A stretch of DNA of 64,000 nucleotides. Source: Octopus vulgaris. Lineage: Eukaryota. Below, one piece after another: positions 20,126 through 63,823 of this stretch. A model generated the notes under the pieces. The model was not told the DNA's origin, did no database searches, and was given only the letters and a program-made list of their open reading frames with translations. Each line of letters starts with the position of its first letter. Position 1 is the stretch's first letter. The DNA is taken from positions 159,526,001 through 159,590,000 of the forward strand of contig OX597814.1 in NCBI GenBank assembly GCA_951406725.2, in the 5' to 3' direction. The translations under genes were made by a program, and so were the position numbers.

Positions 20126-22500
20126 ATGAGGTCTATCTGAAAAGTAATGGGACTGGTGTCACAATTTATTATAATTTCAAACAACAAACTATTTTGTTTC
20201 TCTTTCAAAGTAATCCCTCTTGAGTCTAATGCACTGCTGGAGGGATTCATCTGGGATGCCCCCCACTACCCATACAATGAACTGACTACAACATTGGGGT
20301 ATAATATTACAAAATTATAATTTCAAAATGCAGTATATTCCATTGAAAAAATTTTCTATTGAGACTAATTCCCAAAAGTATGGAACCACTAAAAGATATT
20401 GTGATAGTCGCACTGCAGGCAGAAAATGAAATAAAAAGTATTATGATTAATATTATCCAAGAACTGCCAGTGACTGCACAGGATATCGTTGCGTATTGAG
20501 AAACTATTCGAATTTGTATTTTTATTCTGCTTACTTTTTAAAACTTCTTTCCTCTTTGTTATATACTCATTGCCTACAGATTTCATACCGACTACATTAC
20601 AAAAACGTGTATTGTAGCAATTCTATATCGGACACCCAGAAATGGTGAGGAGCTACGTCGGGCACCCAGAAATGGTGAGGAGCTAACGTCTATTGGCTGA
20701 CTATGGGCCAGGATATTGAAAATTTGGTGAGAACTTGTTGAGGTTGCACACTCGCAGCCAAAGCCGAGCCAGTAAAATATCAATCATGGTCGGATACTGA
20801 GAACCCATGGCCTAGGTTACATATCGACTATGCAAGACCGGTGAACGCCGCTTACTATCTAATCGTGGTAGACAGCTGTACAAAGTGGCCAGAGGTATGC
20901 AAGTGCTAAGACAACTATAAAGTTCCTACATGAAATGTTTGCACTATATGGTGTTCCAGACATGTTTGTTTCTGATAATGGAATGCAATTCTCGGGGTAT
21001 GAATTCAAGAACTTCTATAAAATGCATACGATAAAGCATATTGTCACTCCACCCTACCACCTGAAATCAATTGGGCAGGTAGAAAGATTTGTGGGCACAT
21101 TCAAAAGAGTGTTAAGAAAAGTTAGGAACTAATTAAGTAATGATAAAGCACTAACAAAATTCTTAAGGGTATATAGAATAACTCCTAATCCAAGTATAAA
21201 TTCAGGAAAGTCACCTGCGATTCACGAGAAGAATAAAATCGATTTTTGAGAAAAAAAAGATGTAAAGGAAATACAAAAGATGCAACGAAATATTTCGAAG
21301 TAGGAGATAAAAGTGCATTTTAAAACCTACAGAAATGGTAAAGAAGGTTGGGAGGATGGCCTTGTAACCAAAAAAATATGACATATGATGTATCTAATTA
21401 AAGAACCCTGCTGGGAACATAAGAGACATATAAATCAATTAAAGAAGAGACATAGTGAAGAATGGAGAGAAATTCCTATGGAAGTATTTTTTGATGTATT
21501 TGATGTTACAGCACCGAAAGTAATGAAGTCTCATAGAACCAGCATGAGAAAACTGAAGCAGACCGAACACCTTGAGATAAGGTCCAAGCAAATAATAATA
21601 ATAAATAAAATTTATTCCTTTGGAACTCAAAATCTCAATAGAGGAGATGTGACGAGAGTATGACACCCTTTGACAAGAATGGATGGGACCACTACATATA
21701 AATAGTAGCGGTCTGACGTAGTTGGCAGTTCGTAGTTTGGTCTTCATAGTCCGGGTACAGTTTACAGTTCGGATTAGTGTGTTGGAGATATTGATTGTTG
21801 GTTTGTTACTGCTGCTGTTTCTATTTTGCATTGTTATAACACTGTTACAGAGTATTCTTTATTTATCGTCGATAATATCAATAATATTGGAGGTGTAAGG
21901 ATATAACACTTTCTTTGTCCTTGGATATGTTGGAGACTTCCACTGACAGATCTGGCAATTGGCTTCCTGGTTGTACTCAAAAATCCATGTTTCATCACCA
22001 GTAATGACTCTATAAAGCAAGTCTGGTTCAGTTTGAAGACGTTCGAGGATGTCCTGACACACCTTCTGATTATCATTCAGCACCTTTGGCACCATTTTTG
22101 CACAGACCTTCCATATGCCCAAATCTTCAATGATAACCTTCCAAACACTGTCCTTTTTCATGTCCATCTGACTTGCAATCATTCGTACAGTCAACTGAGG
22201 ATCATCACACACCACCTGGCTTACCTGCTCGACGTTGACCTCAGTCTTGCTTGTTGAAGGCATCCCGCTCCTGGAGTCATCTTCCACCTCCTCGCGCTCC
22301 TCTGTGAATCTCTTGCACCACTCAAAAATACGTGTGCTCGATATGGAGTTATCTCCATACACTTGCTGAAGTATTTCAAGAGTTTGTGACGGAGTTTTCC
22401 CCAACAGAGCCAAAAACTTCAGGTTTATTCGTTGTTCATCGTTCGTTCCTCAGTGCTCATAACTGAACGACCCGAAAAAGTGGAAATGCATGTGAAAAAT
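20126..22500 (-). mobile_element. Mariner element split by a Gypsy insertion
   Basis: ORF 21859-22413 has the HTH, VCAKMVPKVL and VITGDETWIFEY motifs; C-terminal CI.LKRDYFE and a TIR-like end tatgaggtctatctgaaaagt at 20126-20265. Confidence 0.85.
20600..21908 (+). mobile_element. Gypsy LTR retrotransposon 3' part: integrase, polypurine tract and 3' LTR
   Basis: PWPRLHIDYA, IVVDS.TKWPEV, GVPDMFVSDNGMQF and PPYHLKSIGQVERFV motifs; PPT agaggaga followed by TGT(21648)...ACA(21908), after which the mariner sequence resumes. Confidence 0.85.
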
Positions 22501-37476: not shown

Positions 37477-40093
37477 ACTCTTTTACTCTTTTACTCTTTT
37501 ACTTGTTTCAGCCATCCGGCTGAGGCCATGCTGGGGCACCGCCCTTGTTGCTACCCTCTCTAAGTCCAGTTTGCCGTGGCTGGCCACTGATCTAAGAGAG
37601 AGTTTGTAGCTGCTGCCCTTAGGTTACCTTCGTACCTTGCAGTGGGTTCATCTGGGATCCCGGAAAGCAGCTTGTCTAGATGTTTTTTGAAAATGTCCAC
37701 ATCCGCATCATGTAGATCTCTTAGTTTTCTTGGCAGTTTGTTGAAAAGCTGAGGGCCCCTGAACCCCAGGCTATTACAGTATCTGCTCCTTACCCTGGAT
37801 GTGGAAGACGGGACCTTTGGCACCACACAGTGACGTCCTGTACGGGGATTGGAACAGCTCTCAATTCCAAAATTTGGTGCTAGTCCCTCCAGGATTTTCC
37901 ATATGTATATCACTGCATATCTCTCTCGTCTTCGTTCCAAGGAGTACAAATTGAGTTCCCTAAGCCTCTCCCAATAGTTCTTTTCTTTCATGGTGGAAAT
38001 CCTCTTGGTGAAATGTCTTTGGATTGTCTCAAGCTCTGTGGTTAGTTTGACACTATGCGGTGACCACAGTTGGGAGCAGTAGTCCAGGCGGCTTAGGACA
38101 AATGTCCTCCATAGTGTCAACATGGTGTCGCAGTCTCTTGTCCGGAATGTCCTCAGGATCCAGCCAGTGAGTCGTCTGCACATTGTCGCCACCTTCGCGA
38201 TGTGTGAAGAAAAAGATGCATCGTCACTCATGTCTATCCCCAGGTCCCGTATTGATTTCGATACTGGGATTTCGATCCCTCCTGGACCAGTATAGTTGTG
38301 TTGTAATGTATATGTGTTTACAGCTTGATATTGTAAGGCTTGAAATTTACCAGCATTAAATTGCATGTTGTTGTCTTCAGCCCATTTGTATATGGCATCC
38401 AGATCTTGTTGTAAAAGGTCAGCATCAGCTGGGTTTTTGATTGCCTGTGCTACCTTTGTGTCATCAGCATAGCTAGTGAGGGATGTTGTTTGTGCTACCA
38501 AGGGCATGTCAGAGAGCGCCACCAAAAACAGCAAGGGTCCCAAGACTGTGCCCTGTGGCACCCCGCTTGCTATTGGTGTCTTTCCCGAGAGGGCTCCATT
38601 GGCTGCAACCATCTGGCTTCTGTCCTTCAGGAAGTCATGTATCCACTCACCTACTTTTCCTGTTATGCCGAGTCTGAGTAATTTGTGACATATCACTCCG
38701 TGGTCGACTTTGTCAAAGGCCTTCGCAAAGTCGAGATATACCACATCCACCTGTGAGCGATCCAGTAGTTGTTTCAGTACCCAGTCGTAGTGTTGTAACA
38801 GCTGCGTAAGGCAGCTTCTTCCTGGGCGAAAGCCATGCTGTGTGTCAGTGAGACGGTTAGTTTCTTCGAGGAACGTGATCAGTTTTTTCTGATGATTCGT
38901 TCCATGACCTTACTTATGTGTGACGTCAGGGAGACTGGCCTGTAGTTTTTGGCCTCTGCTCTACTCCCTCCTTTGTGGATAGGGCATATGGTGCCTTCTT
39001 TTAGCGCCCTGGGCAGTTTACCGTTAGCCAAGGAACCACTGAAGAGCTTCTTCAGTGGTCCCGCTAGGGCATGCCTGCATGCTTTTAGGAGGACTGCTGG
39101 GAATCCATCTGGTCCAGCAGCTGAGTTTATTCTCATTTCTTCTATGGCAGATATTACATCCCTCTCTGTTATGTCTATGTGGTCGATGGTTGTTGTTTGG
39201 TTTTGGAGTGTTGTGGCATCAAAGAAAACTTCTGGGTTTGTGATTTGCATGTGCCCCAGAGGGGATGTGAACACACTTTTATACTGTTCCTTTAGTATTT
39301 CACTTATCCCTTGGGGGTCCTCAGTTAGAGAGCCCTTTTTATCAAAGAGTGGGCCAATCTTGCAGTGTACCGAGGTGGTTTCTTTCGCAAATTTAAAGAA
39401 GGCTTTAGGGTTTGTTTTAATATTCTCTATGGCCCTGGCTTCTCTCTCTGCCCTCTCCTTCTCATAGGAAAGTTTGAGTGCAGTTTCCGTTTCAAAAAGT
39501 TTCAGGTGGAGTCCCTCATTGTTTCTCTGCCGTGCATTCAGTTGCTTCGAGAGCTTAGCTCTTCGCCTCATAAGTATTTTCCTGTCTCTGGGAATAACGT
39601 TCCTATGCCCGCTGGCTTTTTTCTCCGGGACAAACTTATGGCATATGTTCTGTATTGTTGTCATGAAATGTTGGAAATGTGTGTTGGTGTCTTGTGTGGT
39701 GATGAAGTCACTCCAGTCATGTTTTCGGATCTCTTCGTTGATCTTCTTCCAGTTTGCCTTATGGAAGTTTAGACTGGATAGGCCTGTGGTATTTTCTAAT
39801 GGCTGCGTCTCAACTAACTCTCTCATACCATATATCATTACCTCTACTAAGTTGTGATCTGAGAGAATTGTTGGTGTTACCATTATGTTGTGGATGAGCA
39901 TCGGGTTGCTTGTGAAACAGAGGTCCAAGACATTCTCACCTCTTGTTGGCCAAAGCACTGCTTGCTCCATGAAAAACTTGCGTGTGAGAGCCAACAAGGA
40001 CTCTGTCTGTCTCTGTTCAAGTGATGTCATTCCAGCGAGGAGATGGCCATCTGGCCATTTGACTTTCGGAAGGTTAAAATCTCCCAGCAGTAG
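37477..40093 (-). mobile_element. 5'-truncated CR1-group LINE (end of APE domain plus complete RT), single frameshift
   Basis: [14 protein letters not shown] and SDH (APE); GPDGFP, NYRPVSLTS, QHGFRPGRSC, YLDFAKAFDKV, GVPQGTVLGPLLF and YADD (RT); 3' (GTAAAAGA)n tail; frameshift in an A-run at about 38885. Confidence 0.93.
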
Positions 40094-40094
40094 A

Positions 40095-40139
40095 ATGTAT
40101 ATGTATATATATATGTGTGTGTGTGTATGTATGTATGTA

Positions 40140-40206
<67 letters not shown>

Positions 40207-40287
40207 GTATGTATGTATGTATGCATGTATGTATGTATGTATGTATGTATGTATGTATGTATGTATGTATGTATGTATGTATATGTA
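40095..40287. repeat. (TA)n/(TATG)n microsatellite
   Basis: Direct read. Confidence 0.95.
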
Positions 40288-40393
40288 TAAAACAACAGGA
40301 TTTCACTGCCGGCAGATGTAAGAGTGAATTTCTAGAGCGACACAGAAGAGATTTGCAACTTTCAGGATATTTCTACTGCATTGGGTTCGAATA

Positions 40394-40975
40394 TTACAAA
40401 GCTGTTACCAAGCTATGAGACACGAATGTAATTCTACTTTGACCAAGTCTAAGTCATCCGTTCACTATGCTTCCTCTATGATCACAACTTCCTAAGGTAC
40501 CCTTGCCTATTATCCAATACAACACCTGTACATTCATCAGATGTAGGCTCTATAACCACTTAACTGCTACAATTGCTACTATATACACTAGTTCATCTTC
40601 TAAAACTCTGTTTATCTCATGCATTGCATATGTCCATCCAGACCATAGTCAACAACTATAACAGAATTTATGAATCAAATTTCTCCAGCTACAGCGATCA
40701 TCAACTAGCTGATACCATTTGTCTGTTGGGATAGACAGATATTTCAGGTTCCGCTTGACAGTGTCCTTGAGTCTCAGTATGGACTTACCAATGTTTCGGT
40801 AGTTATCTGCCAGTTGCGAAAACATGATTTTCTTTGGGAGTCTATCATCGCCAAGTCTTGTTGTATAATCTGTCCAACGGAGATTTATTTGCATCAAGAG
40901 TTATTGCATAGATTGAAATCCAGTCTTCCTGAGGACTTCGGAGTTTCAGATATGTTGTTGCCGTCATTGGTAAGT
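40394..40975 (-). mobile_element. RTE LINE 3' fragment
   Basis: LRWTDYTTRLGDDRLPKKIMFSQL..RNIGKSILRLKDTVKRNLK..DRCSWR. Confidence 0.8.
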
Positions 40976-41430
40976 GATGCCAAGACACCCTCAGCCTTCT
41001 TGGAAATTTTAGCAATGTGTTTTGTCCAATGCAGATCGGTGTCGACAAAAATGCCCAGGTCACGTTCAAAAGAAGACTTTTTGACATTAGTGTTGTGGAG
41101 GGAGTAAGTAGACACTGGGTTTTTCCTCCCAAAATGCATGGTGGTACATTTGTCCACAGCCAGCTTGAGTTGCCAGTCCATGATCCACTGCTGCATTGTG
41201 TCCAGGTCTAATTGCAATAAAGATCTATAGTGTACAGGATCTGTTCTCTTTATTTCGAGGTACAACTTGATGTCATCTGCATATTTCAGCACTGTGGCAG
41301 TCTTTAAGTTGGCATCTATGTCATTAACATATGCAACAAATAAAAGGGGGCCAAGAACAGATCCCTGTGGCACACCAGATGTCATCTCAGAGGGCGAAGA
41401 GTGCTGTCCTTGAACTGTGACAACATCTTT
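40975..41430 (-). mobile_element. CR1-group RT fragment (second family)
   Basis: SGVPQGSVLGPLLFVAYVND, KYADDIKL and ERDLGIFVD motifs. Confidence 0.88.
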
Positions 41431-41939
41431 TCGGCCGATTATGATCATAATAGCTCTCAAATGTCGCATATATTCACTATATACAATTTCAAATGGTAAT
41501 GATCTAAATGTTTCCACTGGGAAGAATAATGTCTTAAATCTTTTATCGAAGATATATTTGACCTTTCGGAGTTATACATGATGCAGGTGAATTGAAACTG
41601 GATCAACTACACCGTGGAAGAGTCATTCTCGCTATTTAATAACAAACAGCAGTAAAATCTACTTTAAGTATGTTTCATGAGTTGCAGTAGAAATGTGTTT
41701 GTAATCAGGCCGCAGTTGTGCAACGAAAATTTTGATACTTCATTAAATAAGTTTAATTTTATAGTGAACTTAATATCTTTGCTTCATTAAATGACTAGAA
41801 TGGGTTTTTTTAACGATATTTTTTTGGCTTTTTCTTTTATAAATATTTAATTCAATCTTTATTTTGTGGGTTTGAAAAATTGATTATTTGATTTCGATAA
41901 ATACATTTCTTCTAACATTAATACGGCATTCACATACAG

Positions 41940-44974: not shown

Positions 44975-45296
44975 GAAGGCACATGGCTCAGTGGTTAGAG
45001 CGTCGAGGTTGTGAGTTCGAATCCCGGACCGGACTGCGTGTTGTGTTCTTAAGCAAGACACTTTATTTCACGTTGCTCCAGTTCACTCAGCTGTAGAAAT
45101 GAGTTGCGACGTCACAGGTGCCAAAGCTGTATCGGCCTTTGCCTTTCCCTTGGATAAGATCAGTGGTGTGGAGAGGGGAGGCTGGTATGCATGGGCAACT
45201 GCTGGCCTTCCACAAACAACCTTGCCCGGACTTGTGCCTCGGAGAGTAACTTTCTAGCTGCAATCCCATGGCCAGTCATGACCGAAGGTGGTCTCA
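44975..45296 (+). mobile_element. tRNA-derived SINE (second family) with target-site duplication
   Basis: A/B boxes; flanked by atattctttatt at 44961-44972 and 45298-45309. Confidence 0.92.
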
Positions 45297-45367
45297 GATA
45301 TTCTTTATTGTGATGTTATTTCTACTGTGACTTCATGTTAATTACTATTATTTTTAGTTCCACATTT

Positions 45368-46414: not shown

Positions 46415-46740
46415 ATTCTGTTGTGTCTGGGGAGAGTCGTTTTTTTTGTGCCTTATAATGTAACATACTCACCGGTAAAATTTCCACTTTTTTCTTAATT
46501 TTATTTTCCTAAACTTTTCGTTGACTCTCAGAGACTCTTAGAGAGTCAATACTATTGAAAAGGTTGCAGACGCAACGGAAATTATAGGGAAAATAAAAAT
46601 AAGAAATAAGTGGAAATTTTACCGGTGAGTGTGTTACATTATAAGGCACAAAAAGAAAATGACTCTCCCCAGACACAACAGAATATGCTTCAACACACGA
46701 ACTCATATAAAGAATCTTGCAAACCAAATCCAAAAACGAA
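46415..46740. mobile_element. Palindromic short element just 3' of the reflectin polyA signal
   Basis: 46415-46523 is inverted relative to 46573-46685 (arms of about 110 bp). Confidence 0.85.
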
Positions 46741-46796
46741 ATATTGTAAAGATAACTTTAAAATACAATATAAGACATCATATGCTGCAACAAAAT

Positions 46797-46802
46797 TTTA
46801 TT
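46797..46802 (-). terminator. Putative polyadenylation signal AATAAA of the reflectin mRNA
   Basis: tttatt on the plus strand, about 115 nt after the stop codon; first AATAAA downstream of the stop. Confidence 0.55.
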
Positions 46803-46917
46803 GATATAAATTTAAATGTGTTCGAATACTGAGGACGTTAAAAAAATGTGTCAAGTTTCCAATTAACATTAGCCAGTAGAATTTCCGAAAAGTTTTGTCG
46901 TTTGTCTGATTACAAAA

Positions 46918-48183
46918 TTAAAATCTGTGCATGTTCATCCAGCGCCCATTGAAGTCCATCTCGTAGTGAGACATATCAAAGAATCTTTCTGGGTAGTCGT
47001 GGAACCTATGTCCCCAGTTGTAGTTATAGTGGGGATAATAATTATAGTAGTGGCTCCCTCTGTGGTAATGGTTATAACCAAAGAAAGGATAGGAGTATTG
47101 ATTGTACATGTCCATCCAGTTACCGTCGAAATCCATTTGGTAATGGGACATATCATTGAACATGTCGTAATAGTTGTGGTACCTATGTCCCCAACTGTAA
47201 CTGTTACCCGAATGATGATAACCGTTGGAGCCATTGAATGAATGGAAAGGTTGATAGCCATGACCATACATGTTCATCCAGTGACCATTGAAGTCCATCT
47301 GGTAGTGGGACATATCAAAGTATCTTTCTGGGTAGTTGTAAAATCTATGTCCCCAGCTGTAGTTAGAGTGGGGATAATAATTGTGGTAGTGGCTCCCCCT
47401 ATAGTAATGGTTGTGACCAAAGAAAGGATGGGAGTAATGATTATACATATCCATCCAATGACCATTAAAATCCATCTGGTAATGGGACATATCCATGGAT
47501 CTCTCGGGATGGTACATATGCAGGAAATTCATATATGGATAATTCATATAACGCCTGTAATAGTTGTCATATGGACTACAGTGACGTCCGTATCTGTCCA
47601 TATATTGGCCATTCATGTCCATTTGGTAGTGGGACATATCCATGAATCTCTCGGGATGGTACATATGAAAGGAATTCATATATGGATAATTCATATAACG
47701 CCTGTAATAGTTGTCATATGGACTACAGTGACGTCCGTATCTGTCCATATATCGGCCATTCATGTCCATTTGGTAGTGGGACATGTCCATGTATCTCTCA
47801 GGATAGAACCCATAACGACCATTGTAGTAGCTAGAGTTGTAGCCATGTCTTGAAGAATTGAACATGTAGGAGTAGGGGCTAGAGTAGTGTCCGTGCATGT
47901 CCATCCACCTTCCATACATGTCCATCTGATAACCGGACATATCCATAAACATATCTGGGAAATCCATGAAATAATCAAATCTATGGAACCTATCGAAATC
48001 ATGGAAACCGTGATAGTTGTACATAGATCTACCATAGTACCTGTCTTGGTCATGATATCTCCCATCGAAGCCGTAGGATCTGGGATCAACCATTCTTCCA
48101 TAAGAATCCATGTATCTGCCATGGAAGTCCATTGACATCATGTGCATTGGTTCCATTCTACCGTTGTATCTGTGTCCGTACAT
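46918..48183 (-). CDS. reflectin: Reflectin (cephalopod structural-colour protein), 421 aa, single coding exon
   Basis: N-terminal motif MEPMHMMSMDFHGRYMDSYGRMVDP and seven PER(Y/F)(M/F)DMSxYQMDxxGx(W/Y)MD-type repeats; rich in M/Y/R/H/D; no K, A, T or I. First ATG at 48183, preceded by an in-frame TGA and acceptor taatttcag| at 48231. Confidence 0.97.
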   Translation of the reverse strand: MYGHRYNGRMEPMHMMSMDFHGRYMDSYGRMVDPRSYGFDGRYHDQDRYYGRSMYNYHGFHDFDRFHRFDYFMDFPDMFMDMSGYQMDMYGRWMDMHGHYSSPYSYMFNSSRHGYNSSYYNGRYGFYPERYMDMSHYQMDMNGRYMDRYGRHCSPYDNYYRRYMNYPYMNSFHMYHPERFMDMSHYQMDMNGQYMDRYGRHCSPYDNYYRRYMNYPYMNFLHMYHPERSMDMSHYQMDFNGHWMDMYNHYSHPFFGHNHYYRGSHYHNYYPHSNYSWGHRFYNYPERYFDMSHYQMDFNGHWMNMYGHGYQPFHSFNGSNGYHHSGNSYSWGHRYHNYYDMFNDMSHYQMDFDGNWMDMYNQYSYPFFGYNHYHRGSHYYNYYPHYNYNWGHRFHDYPERFFDMSHYEMDFNGRWMNMHRF

Positions 48184-48394
48184 GATGGAATACAAAAACT
48201 GGTTACCAATCTCTGTAAGTTCAATTCAAGCTGAAATTAGAAAATATGTGAGTGAGTTACTGAAAAATTACACAATATATATCTGAAAAATTTTATGGTT
48301 TGCATTTTATTCCCGTCAATGTGCTCTTTACAAATCTACGTATCTATACAGGCAAACAGATAACACACAGATAACGTATAACTTCGCACAAATT

Positions 48395-49545: not shown

Positions 49546-52181
49546 TATTTTCGGTTTTAATTCTTCCCACTAAGAAGTTAGTTCTGACAAAGAAAGAAAG
49601 CTTAATCGCTGGAATTGGATACCCAGAAAGGTGCTAAACGCTGAACTCTAGAAAATTCTTGCATATGTTTACTGCTCTGTTTACACATTGTGTTTGTAAG
49701 GTGCATGCTAATTGGTTACTTTGTTTACCTGAAAATGATAGTTTTCAAGAATGAAACATTTACTAACATAACCAAATGCACCAATAATGATTATACGATG
49801 TAAATGTGAATTTATAATAAGGTTTGAGAAGTTGCAAGTTTTGAAGCAGTTGCCTACAAATATTCTCCTTGTCACTGATTAGGGATAAGATGTTCACACG
49901 TTGATATCTGCTGATATCAACGACCAAACATAATTTCTCCTTCCTGCGTATGTGTATTTATTGTGTGTGTGTGTGTGGAGGGGTGTGTGAACGTGCATGT
50001 GCATATATCAAAATGCAGCAAAAGAAAGCAAATGTGTCTAGTTCATTTTAAATAAAATTTTAAAATATCTTTCGTTCAAAATAGAAACTGCACAAACTCA
50101 AAATACAAACCAAATCATAAAAAAAAAATGGATGCATCTTTTGTGTATGAAACGTCACTCAAATTTAAATTACTAAAACAACAAGCTTTGTTAAATAAAT
50201 ATGCACACAATATCATAAAAACATAATGATTATCTATAACTATAGCTCTAAAAATGACCATTACCCTATGAAAATCGATCGAATTAATTGCAAATAATTT
50301 ATATAGGTTTTTAAGGCTACATTCACGGACTAGTTTACATTAGACAATATTGCCTACAACGATATACTGTAGATCAAAGGAATTTGAAACGCGATCCTCA
50401 AACTTATTATGTGTGGTTCCCGAGATGATTTTGGCTTTCAGTGTTACTTTTCCTAAAGCAGCCTTGACATCCTGCCAGCTGTGGAACTGAAGACTTGATA
50501 GAAGCCTTTGCAGTGATTAGGAGTCCAAACGCGAAAAAAGCAGTTCACGGACTTGATTAAGCCACAATCGCATCATACAACTTTCACAAGAACAACCTAA
50601 AAATCGACCAATCAGCTTGAAGCTATCGTGTGAACAGCATCTCGAATGTTCTCGAATGTTTTTTCCTACTTTAGCAGGTTGGCCTATCACAGTAGAGCGT
50701 TGTTGGTATTCAGCCAGGACAAAAATCGGTTTTCATCTTAACGTGCGGCGGACACACATCTTTTGTCATTGGTTTTTCAGATAGCAAATAGCCGAACAAA
50801 CGCAGTTAAGTCAGTTCTTACATATTATTCGGATAACCAGTGAAACATTGATAATTTATGTACGATACGTGTACAATCTTCTCTTAATAAAAATATGTTG
50901 TTAAACATTTGCGAGTTTGCTTTTGTGGACATATATGCAGCCAGTCTGATCTTACATTCAGTTAATAAAGATACAACATCAATCTTTCTCACGACAACTC
51001 GTTCCCATAAAGATTATAAAGATTGGTGACTCACCGAAGAAAGATCTACAACGAACAACAACAGGACCCCTTCAATGAGCAATCATTAATCAATATACTT
51101 AAGTAAGATTGTAGTCATATATATTCTTTTCCTAAATATAATTTAAGAAATATTTTTGTGGATTTTAAGTACAAAAAAATGCCACATATGTCTCGTATCT
51201 AAAACTCGCCCATTTCTGCTATAGATTATGATACCAGGGACAATTTGAATGTTAACTGAAATATTAAAATGGCAGGAGGAATATTTTATTTTATATTGCA
51301 ATTGGTGAAAAATAGTGTCACTAGTTACATGCTTCCAACAGGATATTCATTGGGCCAATGAAATTCCGACATTTTTGCATATAATTATTTATGATAATAA
51401 AGTTATAATTACCTCCACGAACCACACACACACACACACATACACACACAGAGAAAGAAATAAAAACTCTAAAGAAAGCATTCGATAGTACGACTTGGTC
51501 AGCTAATATGTCAATTTATTGCAATTATTTCTTAATTGTCTTCTGCGTGTTTTCTACTGTGAATTGAAAGGAAGTTTGTAAAATTAAAGAAACACAAGGA
51601 AAATGAGATTTGATGCCAATACGAAAGTAAATACTGTTTAGCAAAATCTTCACCTCTTCTGGGTCCACACCATCAACATTGCACATTAGAAGGCAAAAAT
51701 ATAAAGCTCCAATACGCAATACGTTAAAGAATGAATATAGAAATCACCGAACACGTTCTAAGCTTTCATATATTTGTATTTTGTAAAGATTAGAGATTTT
51801 ACCTATTATTATTCTTGTATGTTTAAGTGGCTAACGTGTATAATTAATGAATAGCACATAGTTATAAATTAGTAGCTATGAAATTAATCTGAAATGAAAA
51901 TGAATTGAAACTGGAGAACAGCTATGTATGAAAAAAAATGCAAATTAGAACTGAATATTTGCAAAATGTAAAGAATATAATAATTTTATACTGAATTATT
52001 GTAACTGAATTAATAACAAAATAAAGGAATATGCTTTATAATATAATCAAAGACAAAAGATAGATATAAACTAGCACAGAAACGGTAAAACATAGAAAAT
52101 ATATATCAGTTACTAAGAGAAGAAACATTTGGAACAATTAGCACTGTATTACTATTAGTAATTGTAATCAAATTGTCTCAC

Positions 52182-52243
52182 CTTAAGAAGAGCCGAAGTT
52201 TCTCAATCGAGATGACGAGTAACAGAACACTTGTTCTTGGAAT
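52182..52243 (-). other. Putative non-coding exon 1 of reflectin
   Basis: Starts at Inr TCATTC (A+1 = 52243), contains no ATG, ends at donor AAG|GTGAGA (52182/52181). Confidence 0.65.
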
Positions 52244-52274
52244 GATTTAGGAAAGATATTTTCCACTTTATATA
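52240..52274 (-). promoter_or_regulatory. TATA box plus initiator core promoter
   Basis: TATATAAAG begins at 52274, exactly 31 nt upstream of the A of TCATTC (TCAKTY Inr consensus). Confidence 0.65.
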
Positions 52275-52596
52275 TCTTTACAACGATAATTAAAATGCTG
52301 TGGCAGATTAATTAGTTAATTATATAAGAAGTATTTAACAAGTGTATGTTTAATGACTAGCTAAACTTAGTAATTTGATTAACTTTCATAAAAAATGAAA
52401 CAAAATATTTTTTTTTTTTAATATTACAAAGAACGCTGTATTTTTTGTATATGGCAAAGATATTTTCAGTTTTTATTCTGAACGTTGAATGTTTCATATT
52501 TTATTTAGTAATCTTTATTGCTGAAATAGATCGTTCTTATTGATATAACTGGTTTTACAATTAGTGTCATCCACTTTAAATATTTCACATATTTAC

Positions 52597-61733: not shown

Positions 61734-63505
61734 CTATTTATATGCACTAAAAGTATGTTTTTGCCAATGCTTACATCTGTATGCTCGTTCTATAACCGTG
61801 TTTACTAGAGTATTTTTAGAAAAAATAATGAAAAATAGCTCAGAATTGCAGAGAAGACAGAATTTCTTGCCTTTGTCATATGGTATCGAAATTGAGAGGA
61901 TCAACCATTCCAAATGAAATTGTTCATTGTGGTCTTTTAAATTCCAAATCAGTTTGCTGAGACCGGTACTATTCCGTTTATTTCTATCCCTAAATGTTGA
62001 GTAATGGATAGAAATTCTCTTAGATAACTCTAACGATGTGCTTCCAATGTAAAATCGTACTTTATTACGAGTACTGATTATACACTGGTATATAGAATTT
62101 TTAATCTTAGAGTTACTTGACATAAATTTAATTCTATTGGGATTGACTTCAGATACAATAACCTTGTTATTAATATTTCTAGAGGGTTGGATGGTAGTAG
62201 CTAAATTAATGTTAGTATTAGTAAATGTATTAATATTTAACAGTTTGTTATTATGAGAAGATATAATTTGCAAGAGATTTTTTGTGTTTGAAAAACCTAT
62301 CCTAACCTTATGTGAATTAATTATAGAGTAATATCTAGAATTATTTGGAAAATTCCTAGCAATAGCTTGACGAAACAGCAGTGGGAGATTAGATTTAATT
62401 TGTCTCCCGTAAGGAATTATTAACCAAATATTTTTACTAGTATTCATAGCGTAATTACTTTTGAAGGTGTTATATTTACTTTTAGATCGGTAATAGGGGA
62501 ATAAATAAGGGTTATCTGCCTTCATTCGCTTTGTATCGGTGCGTAAGTTATGTTTGTTACCAATAATTCTTTTACGACTAGAAATCTTATCTACATTATT
62601 GAATTTACAATTAGACTGAGCAGAATCAATGTAGAAAATTTTTTCTGTATAACCTGCTTTGATTAAGGCAGAGTTATAGAATTCAGCGTTATTATTGAAA
62701 ATATCAACATTAGCAGATAATTTAGATAATCTAAATGAAATATTCTTAACTAAATTCTTAGTAATTGCTCCAGGATGATTACTAAATTTGCTAATGTACT
62801 TAAGATTGGTCAACGGTTTATGATATGGGAAGTAAGAGTCACTGTGTAAATTAAGCGTAATATCTAAAAAGTTGGCCTTCGTCAGATCGTCATCAAAAAC
62901 GATTTTTAAGCCCATTCTACTGAAAAAATTAACTAAACTGTTCTTAACTTTTTGTACCTTTTGGTTAGAAACATTTTGGAGGTAAAGTAAACAATCATCA
63001 CGATATAGACCTCCATAAATGTTAGGGAACTCTTCTGCCATTTCAAAAAGAATATATATACAGACCAAATCAGCTATCTGTGCTGAATCAGAACTTCCCA
63101 TAGGTATATCGAAACTATCTGGTGTGTCTTTACGGACCCACAACTTTAATAATAGATCTTCTGGCTGCCAACACAACATTAATTTCTTCTCGGGTGAGAC
63201 CAGCTTTGTTATGAGCAAGCCAAAGTGCCTTATTAAGTACTATTGGATTAATAGACGAATAAAAATTGGAAATATCAAACTGGATAAACTTCGTACTCAC
63301 CTTACTGTTAATAGACCTAAACCAGTCAACTACGTCAAATGAATTAGTCCATAAACTAAGTTTTAATGTTTTGATTAGATTAGGAATATATTTATCTAGT
63401 ATATTTTTACTAAGGATACCGATGTCAGAGCTAGAAGGGCAGATAAGCCTTAATGATGGGTTAGTAAAAAAATTTGGTTTGTGATCCTTCAAAATAAAAC
63501 TAGGT
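61734..63505 (-). pseudogene. Penelope-like RT plus C-terminal GIY-YIG endonuclease, one frameshift near 63145
   Basis: FDISNFYSSI, FDIPMGSSDSAQIADLV, GLYRDD and FLDITL (RT); SIYQC..FYIGST..KRISIH (GIY-YIG); terminal CLLC..E..CKH. Confidence 0.9.
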
Positions 63506-63823
63506 TGCAATTCTGAGCTATTTTTCATTATTTTTTCTAAAAATACTCTAGTAAACACGGTTATAGAACGAGCATACAGATGTAAGCATTGGCAAAAACA
63601 TACTTTTAGTGCATATAAATAGTATCTATCATTATATATAGTTTAGACTTTAATTTCCTTTATATTTAACATTCACTATTAATATCCTTACTCTTTCTGT
63701 TAGCTACTTATGACGTTATATCATATAACGTTTTTTTAAACAATATTAATAGCGTTCTGTCTATCGCTATACGAATCCATCATTTTTTGCTAAAATGTCG
63801 TATTGACAAGTTTCGTTTTTTCA

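What the first reader, a model, noticed from the sequence alone, without database searches (positions are those of the whole stretch)
46918..48183. Atypical His-rich, net-acidic reflectin: candidate pH- or metal-switched variant
Seen (hand counts, approximate): about 45 His, 34 Arg, no Lys, and about 42 Asp+Glu in 421 aa. Six of seven motifs read DMSHY(Q/E) instead of DMSGYQ/DMSNY. GRW becomes GHW or GNW in motifs 4-6, and the C-terminal linkers are H/Y/N-rich (GHNHYYRGSHYHNYYPH). Net charge is about -8 with neutral His and strongly positive when His is protonated. Known: well-studied squid reflectins have cationic Arg-rich linkers and assemble on charge neutralisation (phosphorylation, or pH titration of His in vitro). 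Inference: this protein would cross neutrality near physiological pH and may be constitutively condensed (static reflector or leucophore) or tuned by pH or Zn/Cu. It has an Arg-rich N-half and a His-rich C-half.
Basis: partly seen in the sequence, partly recalled or inferred. Interest (0 to 1): 0.72.

Follow-up and report, generated by a model that had tools for sequence, protein, structure and literature searches.

The report
Histidine-swapped, pre-neutralised octopus reflectin pair
This is a real octopus gene for reflectin (the protein behind cephalopod shine) that, with a near-identical twin nearby, has swapped arginine and tyrosine for histidine and likely lost most of its positively charged front end, so it probably packs into fixed reflectors without a trigger rather than acting as a pH or metal switch.

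Summary
Counts confirmed: intact 421-aa reflectin, 45 His, 34 Arg, no Lys, 42 Asp+Glu, computed pI 6.6-7.1. It is one of six clustered reflectin genes. A 96.5%-identical twin 27 kb away shares the trait; the other four have 3-7% His and pI 7.7-8.4. The pair tops 29 compared reflectins for His (10.5-10.7%) and alone has more His than Arg+Lys. The change is directional: 11 of 36 polarised substitutions go to His (9.5% expected), with 5 Arg lost and none gained. RNA-like contigs cover the gene, one with a poly(A) end. The switch reading is weaker: squid A1 already has 8.9% His, so the computed pH slope is only about 20% steeper. The linkers remain net cationic, His residues are not clustered as metal sites, and net-acidic reflectin-like proteins occur elsewhere (7 of 27). 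Best reading: a pre-neutralised subunit that would condense without phosphorylation in static reflectors and lower the charge of mixtures with its cationic paralogues. Untested; tissue unknown. The scan's earlier notes held no report on this protein.

The parts
46918..48183 (-). Reflectin coding sequence, 421 aa, single coding exon
   Evidence: homologues named reflectin
48157..48183 (-). Shortened N-terminal linker L_N: 9 aa with 2 Arg, against 18-25 aa with 4-7 Arg/Lys in the ordinary paralogues and in squid and cuttlefish reflectins with a full N-terminus
   Evidence: no ATG in the 14 open codons upstream or in the candidate first exon
48082..48156 (-). N-terminal reflectin motif RMN (aa 10-34)
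   Evidence: matches the consensus given in PMC11931252
47890..47958 (-). Repeat motif RM1 (aa 76-98), canonical DMSGYQ...GRW
47471..47804 (-). 147-bp tandem duplication holding RM2 (47734-47802) and RM3 (47587-47655); one unit is absent from the twin gene
46924..47508 (-). RM4-RM7 (47440-47508, 47263-47331, 47101-47169, 46924-46992) with three His-rich linkers between them (8, 6 and 6 His; 2, 1 and 2 Arg)
46778..46917 (-). 3' UTR with AATAAA at 46797-46802 and poly(A) site at 46778
   Evidence: contig of run X4 ends at 46778 in a T run plus adapter-like letters; the genome is not A-rich there
48184..48230 (-). 5' UTR part of the coding exon; candidate acceptors before 48230 or 48212 (inferred)
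   Evidence: contig cover ends in bin 48190-48259
52182..52274 (-). Candidate TATA box (52267-52274) and non-coding first exon ending in a GT donor at 52181 (inferred)
   Evidence: 70.6% identical over 52165-52587 to the block 5 kb upstream of the twin gene; not covered in 4 of 4 runs laid

Best explanation
This gene and its twin encode a low-charge reflectin that likely condenses by itself at cell pH and serves as a building block of fixed (non-tunable) reflectors. Shown: seven repeats plus RMN; Arg and Tyr replaced by His across the linkers and repeats; whole-chain charge of -0.8 to +0.6 per 100 aa at pH 7.4-7.0, against +0.4 to +2.3 for the four ordinary paralogues. Likely: the cationic N-terminal linker is cut from about 18 to 9 residues. 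Inferred from squid A1, where lower net charge gives larger assemblies and deleting the N-terminal linker with RMN mimics maximal phosphorylation: this protein starts out in the neutralised state, so the Tyr/Met/His contacts win without a kinase signal. Inferred: His keeps a ring-shaped sticker and the refractive increment while dropping fixed positive charge, and where co-expressed with the cationic paralogues it would lower the charge of the mixture and set particle size or packing. Acid would still disperse it in vitro, as for A1, but that is a property of the family and not shown to be used in the animal.
For: Composition and charge table of 29 reflectins. Directional change: 11 of 36 changes to His with three outgroups after collapsing repeat-equivalent sites (p 3e-4 against a 9.5% null); 5 Arg lost, 0 gained; sister branches 3 of 28 versus 18 of 58 (Fisher p 0.03). 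Purifying selection, dN/dS 0.13-0.31. The pair forms a clade, 100/99, stem 0.16-0.18. L_N has 2 and 1 Arg/Lys against 6 in all four paralogues. Charge rule and deletion result in 10.1101/456442; that paper says structures are static in most cephalopods and tunable in loliginid squid. Mixtures of reflectins shift each other's phase boundary (10.64898/2026.03.13.711711). Contigs with this gene's 3' UTR letters in X1, X14 and X16, and a poly(A) end in X4. Computed refractive increment 0.213, same as the closest paralogues (residue values recalled).
Against: Linker-only charge, the better predictor in A1, is +6.3 per 100 aa at pH 7.4: lower than 7.7-10.0 in three paralogues, Sepia reflectin 1 and squid A2, but above 3.1-5.7 in L005, P0003, P0004, P0008 and P0032 (where degenerate repeats were counted as linker). 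So the shift is moderate. At pH 6.5 its whole-chain charge (+3.5) equals that of ordinary reflectins. In the non-repeated head alone the His bias is not significant (3 of 12, p 0.10). The A1 mutant removed RMN as well as L_N, whereas this protein keeps RMN. No tissue, protein or assembly data. Direct splice evidence for the 5' end is thin (see full report).
Confidence: 0.5

Rival explanations
1. No special function: His accumulated by drift and by homogenisation among repeats in a redundant duplicate, and the protein behaves like any other octopus reflectin.
For: The DMSHYQ variant pre-exists in repeat 2 of paralogues. Most His gains lie in the repeated half, and the head alone is not significant. 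Internal duplication and contigs mixing letters of the two twins show sequence exchange; gene conversion among reflectins is proposed in PMC9635652. Cuttlefish reflectin 14 has linkers with 6 His each.
Against: The bias survives collapsing of repeat-equivalent sites (11 of 36); Arg loss is one-way; the N-terminal linker changed in the same direction; GC3 (0.48-0.50 against 0.40-0.47) and His codon use give no strong sign of a mutational cause.
Confidence: 0.22
2. A proton-tuned reflectin: small changes in intracellular pH move it through its neutral point and swell or condense the reflector, replacing the squid kinase switch.
For: pI 6.6-7.1; the steepest charge slope of the five compared, 2.37 per 100 aa from pH 7.4 to 6.8 against 1.04 for L003 and 0.68 for A2; adding 10 His to A2 made its assembly acid-reversible (10.1101/456442).
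Against: Slope only about 20% above squid A1 (1.97), whose in vivo trigger is phosphorylation; tunable reflectors are reported only for loliginids in 10.1101/456442; no evidence here of pH swings in octopus reflector cells.
Confidence: 0.17
3. A Zn/Cu-cross-linked reflectin: His side chains bind metal ions between chains and harden or switch the condensate.
For: 45 His, 20 of them in the three C-terminal linkers; neutral His is free to bind metal at cell pH (general chemistry).
Against: His spacing: HH 1 (4.8 expected), HxH 4 (4.7), HxxH 6 (4.7), HxxxH 1 (4.7); the densest 20-residue window has 6 His, as in shuffles. Only 2 Cys. A search for reflectin, histidine, zinc and metal listed 2 papers, neither on this by title or abstract. 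Free cytosolic Zn/Cu is very low (recalled). Dispersed His can still bind metal in a dense phase, so this is not excluded.
Confidence: 0.08

Closest known systems
Canonical reflectins of octopods (paralogues L003 and L004; Argonauta hians P0003; Octopus bimaculoides P0004 and P0022)
   Same: RMN plus MD(X)5MD repeats, Tyr/Met/Arg-rich, clustered single-coding-exon genes; falls inside the octopod clade (97/97 and 98/97).
   Different: His 10.5-10.7% against 2.5-6.6%; His/(Arg+Lys) 1.3-1.4 against 0.26-0.62; L_N 9 aa against 18-19; net -8 and -6 against -1 to +4.
Doryteuthis reflectin A1 (tunable)
   Same: Block copolymer of acidic repeats and cationic His-containing linkers; high His (31 of 350, PMC11937991).
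   Different: pI 9.06 (D. pealeii A1, PMC11931252) against 6.6; A1 has 38 Arg in about 350 aa against 34 in 421; A1 keeps a strongly cationic L_N. The A1 sequence itself was not retrieved, so only these published numbers were compared.
Engineered A1 delta-L_N-RM_N and A2+10H mutants (10.1101/456442)
   Same: Loss of N-terminal positive charge and added linker His, the two changes seen here.
   Different: Those are separate laboratory mutants; this natural protein combines both, keeps RMN and trades Arg for His rather than adding His.
Acidic reflectin-like proteins P0010, P0013, P0021, P0033 (unnamed)
   Same: Net-acidic, computed pI 5.2-5.8.
   Different: Short (152-211 aa), acidic through excess Asp/Glu, His 4.7-7.9%; P0021 falls outside the octopod clade.

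Membership tests
Canonical reflectin | N-terminal motif RMN (MEPM...MDF(Q/H)GR(Y/L)MDS.GR(M/I)VDP) | tested here: met
   aa 10-34 against the consensus in PMC11931252
Canonical reflectin | Several (M/F)D(X)5MD(X)5MD repeat motifs | tested here: met
   7 repeats; RM5 and RM7 end in MN and RM6 starts ND
Canonical reflectin | Rich in Tyr, Met and Arg; almost no Lys or aliphatic residues | tested here: met
   Tyr 18.1%, Met 12.4%, Arg 8.1% (low for the family), Lys 0, one Val, one Leu
Canonical reflectin | Cationic linkers between acidic repeats | tested here: met
   Linkers +6.3, repeats -9.5 per 100 aa at pH 7.4
Canonical reflectin | Intrinsic disorder | tested here: inconclusive
   Atlas model pLDDT 0.32, no PDB match: consistent, not a measurement
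Canonical reflectin | Present in reflective platelets or leucosomes | not testable with these tools
   Runs are coded and carry no tissue
Cationic A1-type reflectin (charge-neutralisation switch) | Net cationic chain (pI about 9) with a long, strongly cationic N-terminal linker | tested here: not met
   pI 6.6-7.1; L_N has 9 aa and 2 Arg. By percentage it is still 22% Arg, within the 19-26% of 10.1101/456442, but it carries 2 charges rather than 6-7
Cationic A1-type reflectin (charge-neutralisation switch) | Acetylcholine-triggered phosphorylation drives reversible assembly | not testable with these tools
   Needs tissue and phosphoproteomics
His-cluster metal-binding structural protein | Clustered His (HH, HxH, HxxxH) above chance | tested here: not met
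   No spacing enriched in 2000 shuffles
His-cluster metal-binding structural protein | Measured Zn/Cu binding | not testable with these tools
   Bench assay needed

The most novel reading that the evidence does not exclude
Some octopuses evolved a proton-gated reflectin: by trading fixed Arg charge for titratable His and dropping the cationic leader, the protein sits on its neutral point at cell pH, so intracellular pH rather than phosphorylation sets condensation and reflectance, giving octopus a tunable reflector by a route independent of squid.
Probability: 0.15. Interest if true: 0.8.

Novelty: new variant of a known kind. Interest (0 to 1): 0.42.

Why it matters
It is open why cephalopods keep many reflectin paralogues and what separates static from tunable reflectors (stated as unclear in 10.64898/2026.04.14.718489). 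This pair is a natural test of the net-charge rule built on squid A1: a near-neutral variant beside four cationic paralogues from the same genome. It is also a ready candidate for pH-responsive optical materials that switch near neutrality. It does not by itself overturn anything.

Tried and rejected
Pfam: 0 families. PDB sequences: 0 matches. Atlas: holds the sequence letter for letter, no usable look-alike, TM under 0.3 by query; no fold job was sent because the model is of too low confidence to compare. Exact look-ups: neither twin nor L003, L004 or L006 is in the 15-billion collection, so that collection under-samples reflectins and the absence of a His-rich orthologue among O. bimaculoides or argonaut hits is not evidence of absence. 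No RNA holder is on record as RNA; the runs used are guessed RNA or unlabelled contigs. The candidate first exon was not covered in 4 of 4 runs: no proof either way; the same blank over promoter and intron fits those runs being RNA. Four same-label runs held next to none of the words: not used. P0002 (pI 6.57) was rejected as a counter-example: it starts at RMN, and its full-length cluster mate P0022 has pI 8.09. Higher refractive index as the purpose: not supported, 0.213 as in L003 and L004 (recalled values). In one search RMN was missed by my pattern and two binomial counts were entered by hand; replace them. Papers not held: PMC4795812, PMC4463464, PMC4759182 and one recalled DOI for Lychko et al., which from memory studied an octopus reflectin across pH and may bear on novelty. 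Supplements searched without finding sequences: PMC9635652, PMC7266819, PMC11927725. The table of 141 reflectins in the supplement of 10.64898/2026.04.14.718489 was not seen (bioRxiv supplements closed) and may include this protein.

Full report
Observation. The ORF at 46918-48183 (-) translates to 421 aa with 45 His, 34 Arg, 0 Lys and 42 Asp+Glu, so R+K-D-E = -8. The computed pI is 6.63, or 6.66-7.43 for His pKa 6.0-6.8. It has RMN and seven repeats, six reading DMSHY(Q/E), with GHW, GHW and GNW in repeats 4-6. The hand counts are right. The homologues found are octopod, cuttlefish and squid reflectins.

Genomic setting. Three searches of the own genome give the same six reflectin loci within about 145 kb on C1 (counts are lower bounds). 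L002, 27 kb away on the opposite strand, is 96.5% identical over 919 nt. It encodes 372 aa with 39 His, net -6, pI 6.7, and lacks one 147-bp repeat unit. The other four have 3.2-6.6% His, net +1 to +4 and pI 7.66-8.39. The twins form a clade (100/99) inside the octopod group; their sister gene is unresolved.

Gene structure and expression. Contigs of 4 of 4 runs laid (three guessed RNA, one unlabelled; three organism labels) cover parts of the coding region. An X4 contig ends at 46778 in a T run plus adapter-like letters, 19 nt past AATAAA, where the genome is not A-rich. Contigs in X1, X14 and X16 carry this gene's 3' UTR letters rather than the twin's. Some carry twin-type coding letters, which may be alleles, conversion or assembly mixing. 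A block with a TATA box and GT donor lies 4 kb upstream here and 5 kb upstream of the twin, 70.6% identical, with no ATG between box and donor. One X1 contig of twin type fits splicing to it, but only 5 letters beyond the acceptor were shown and they differ from the unspliced genome by one letter. The window's own block was covered in 0 of 4 runs. The 5' model is therefore inferred. In the four ordinary genes the whole N-terminal linker lies in the coding exon; in the twins the corresponding stretch has no ATG until 9 codons before RMN. Tissue is unknown.

How unusual. I compared 29 sequences: 6 from this genome and 23 retrieved, many of them near-identical cuttlefish copies. Left out were P0009, P0011, P0012, P0014-P0018, P0023 and P0029 (fragments, large atypical proteins or an apparent duplicate of L005). 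The twins rank first and second for His (10.7 and 10.5%; next 7.9%) and are the only ones with His/(Arg+Lys) above 1 (1.32 and 1.39; next 0.86). Negative R+K-D-E is not unique: 7 of the other 27 have it, four of them with pI 5.2-5.8. Eight studied wild-type reflectins have pI 8.60-9.06 (PMC11931252, section 2 parts 1-2 read). Squid A1 has 31 His in 350 aa, 8.9% (PMC11937991, passages), so the His fraction is only a fifth higher than in the best-studied member. What differs is fixed charge.

Direction of change. At columns where L003, L004 and the argonaut protein agree and both twins differ (aa 10-336, repeat-equivalent sites counted once), 11 of 36 changes are to His against at most 9.5% expected (p 3e-4). 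Two His are lost, 5 Arg are lost and none gained. With two outgroups it is 14 of 46. The commonest swaps are Tyr to His and Arg to His. In the non-repeated head alone it is 3 of 12 (p 0.10), so the signal rests mainly on the repeated half, where homogenisation can inflate it. dN/dS is about 0.2 between the twins. The N-terminal linker has 9 residues with 2 and 1 Arg, against 18-19 residues with 6 Arg/Lys in all four paralogues.

Mechanism. In squid A1, assembly size follows net charge density, the sensor lies in the linkers, and removing the N-terminal linker with RMN gives particles like the maximal phosphomimic (10.1101/456442; passages, section 20 and the first part of the Discussion read). 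With His pKa 6.5 the window protein has +0.6 and -0.8 charges per 100 aa at pH 7.0 and 7.4, against +1.0 to +2.3 and +0.4 to +1.4 for the four paralogues. I infer that it begins in the neutralised state and condenses without a kinase, as a subunit of static platelets or leucosomes. It would lower the charge of mixed condensates, as squid reflectins shift each other's phase boundary (10.64898/2026.03.13.711711, passages). Against this: the linkers stay at +6.3 per 100 aa at pH 7.4, below three paralogues (7.7-10.0) but above L005 (4.5) and cuttlefish reflectin 14 (5.7), so the shift is one of degree. Confidence 0.5.

Rivals. Drift plus repeat homogenisation, 0.22. pH tuning in vivo, 0.17: the slope from pH 7.4 to 6.8 is 2.37 against 1.97 for A1 and 1.04 for L003, and tunability is reported only for loliginids in 10.1101/456442 (abstract). 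Metal cross-linking, 0.08: His residues are dispersed, with HH and HxxxH below expectation and none enriched.

Novelty. It is a canonical reflectin by every sequence feature tested, but not of the cationic A1 type. Nine searches of the held library listed no paper describing a His-rich, near-neutral octopus reflectin. The two of three parts read of the 2026 survey of 141 reflectins do not discuss one, but its supplement and several key papers could not be seen. The sequence itself is already in the Atlas. Other papers seen as passages only: PMC9068888, PMC9635652, 10.1101/2024.11.26.625517, PMC11354490, PMC11427776, 10.64898/2026.08.27.747642. The scan's earlier notes hold nothing on this protein by place or sequence; two notes concern a reflectin-tagged transglutaminase near the cluster, not checked here.

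Verdict. A real and directional compositional variant of a known family, kept as a duplicated and apparently transcribed pair. The static, pre-neutralised reading is more likely than a pH or metal switch. Interest 0.42.

Noticed in passing
window 46415-46684: Palindromic element of about 270 bp (arms 92-94% complementary) about 90 bp beyond the poly(A) site, with very high contig depth; looks like a MITE-type repeat. The twin diverges from the window just past 46740.
   Followed up: partly
G000:C1:159601348-159602466 (L002): Twin His-rich reflectin, divergently oriented; similarity is confined to the coding exon, the UTRs, the first-exon block and one 338-bp downstream block (window 44975-45298), with no long duplicated intergenic stretch.
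   Followed up: yes
window 47471-47804: The extra repeat unit appears variable: X1 and X14 contigs look like one-unit forms, X16 pieces fit two units; X14 shows a 15-nt gap at 47526.
   Followed up: partly
window 37560-41469 (-): LINE-type retrotransposon pieces: RVT_1 hits in two ORFs and a weak endonuclease hit.
   Followed up: partly
window 61734-63528 (-) and 21859-22263 (-): ORFs that look by eye like a Penelope-type retroelement and a mariner transposase fragment (recalled resemblance); no Pfam hit at E 0.001.
   Followed up: partly
P0010, P0013, P0021, P0033: Short, strongly acidic reflectin-like proteins (pI 5.2-5.8) from unnamed assemblies, an anionic class outside the usual cationic description.
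   Followed up: no
P0009, P0012, P0015, P0016: Large proteins (757-1270 aa) carrying degenerate reflectin repeats within other sequence.
   Followed up: no
   Followed up: no
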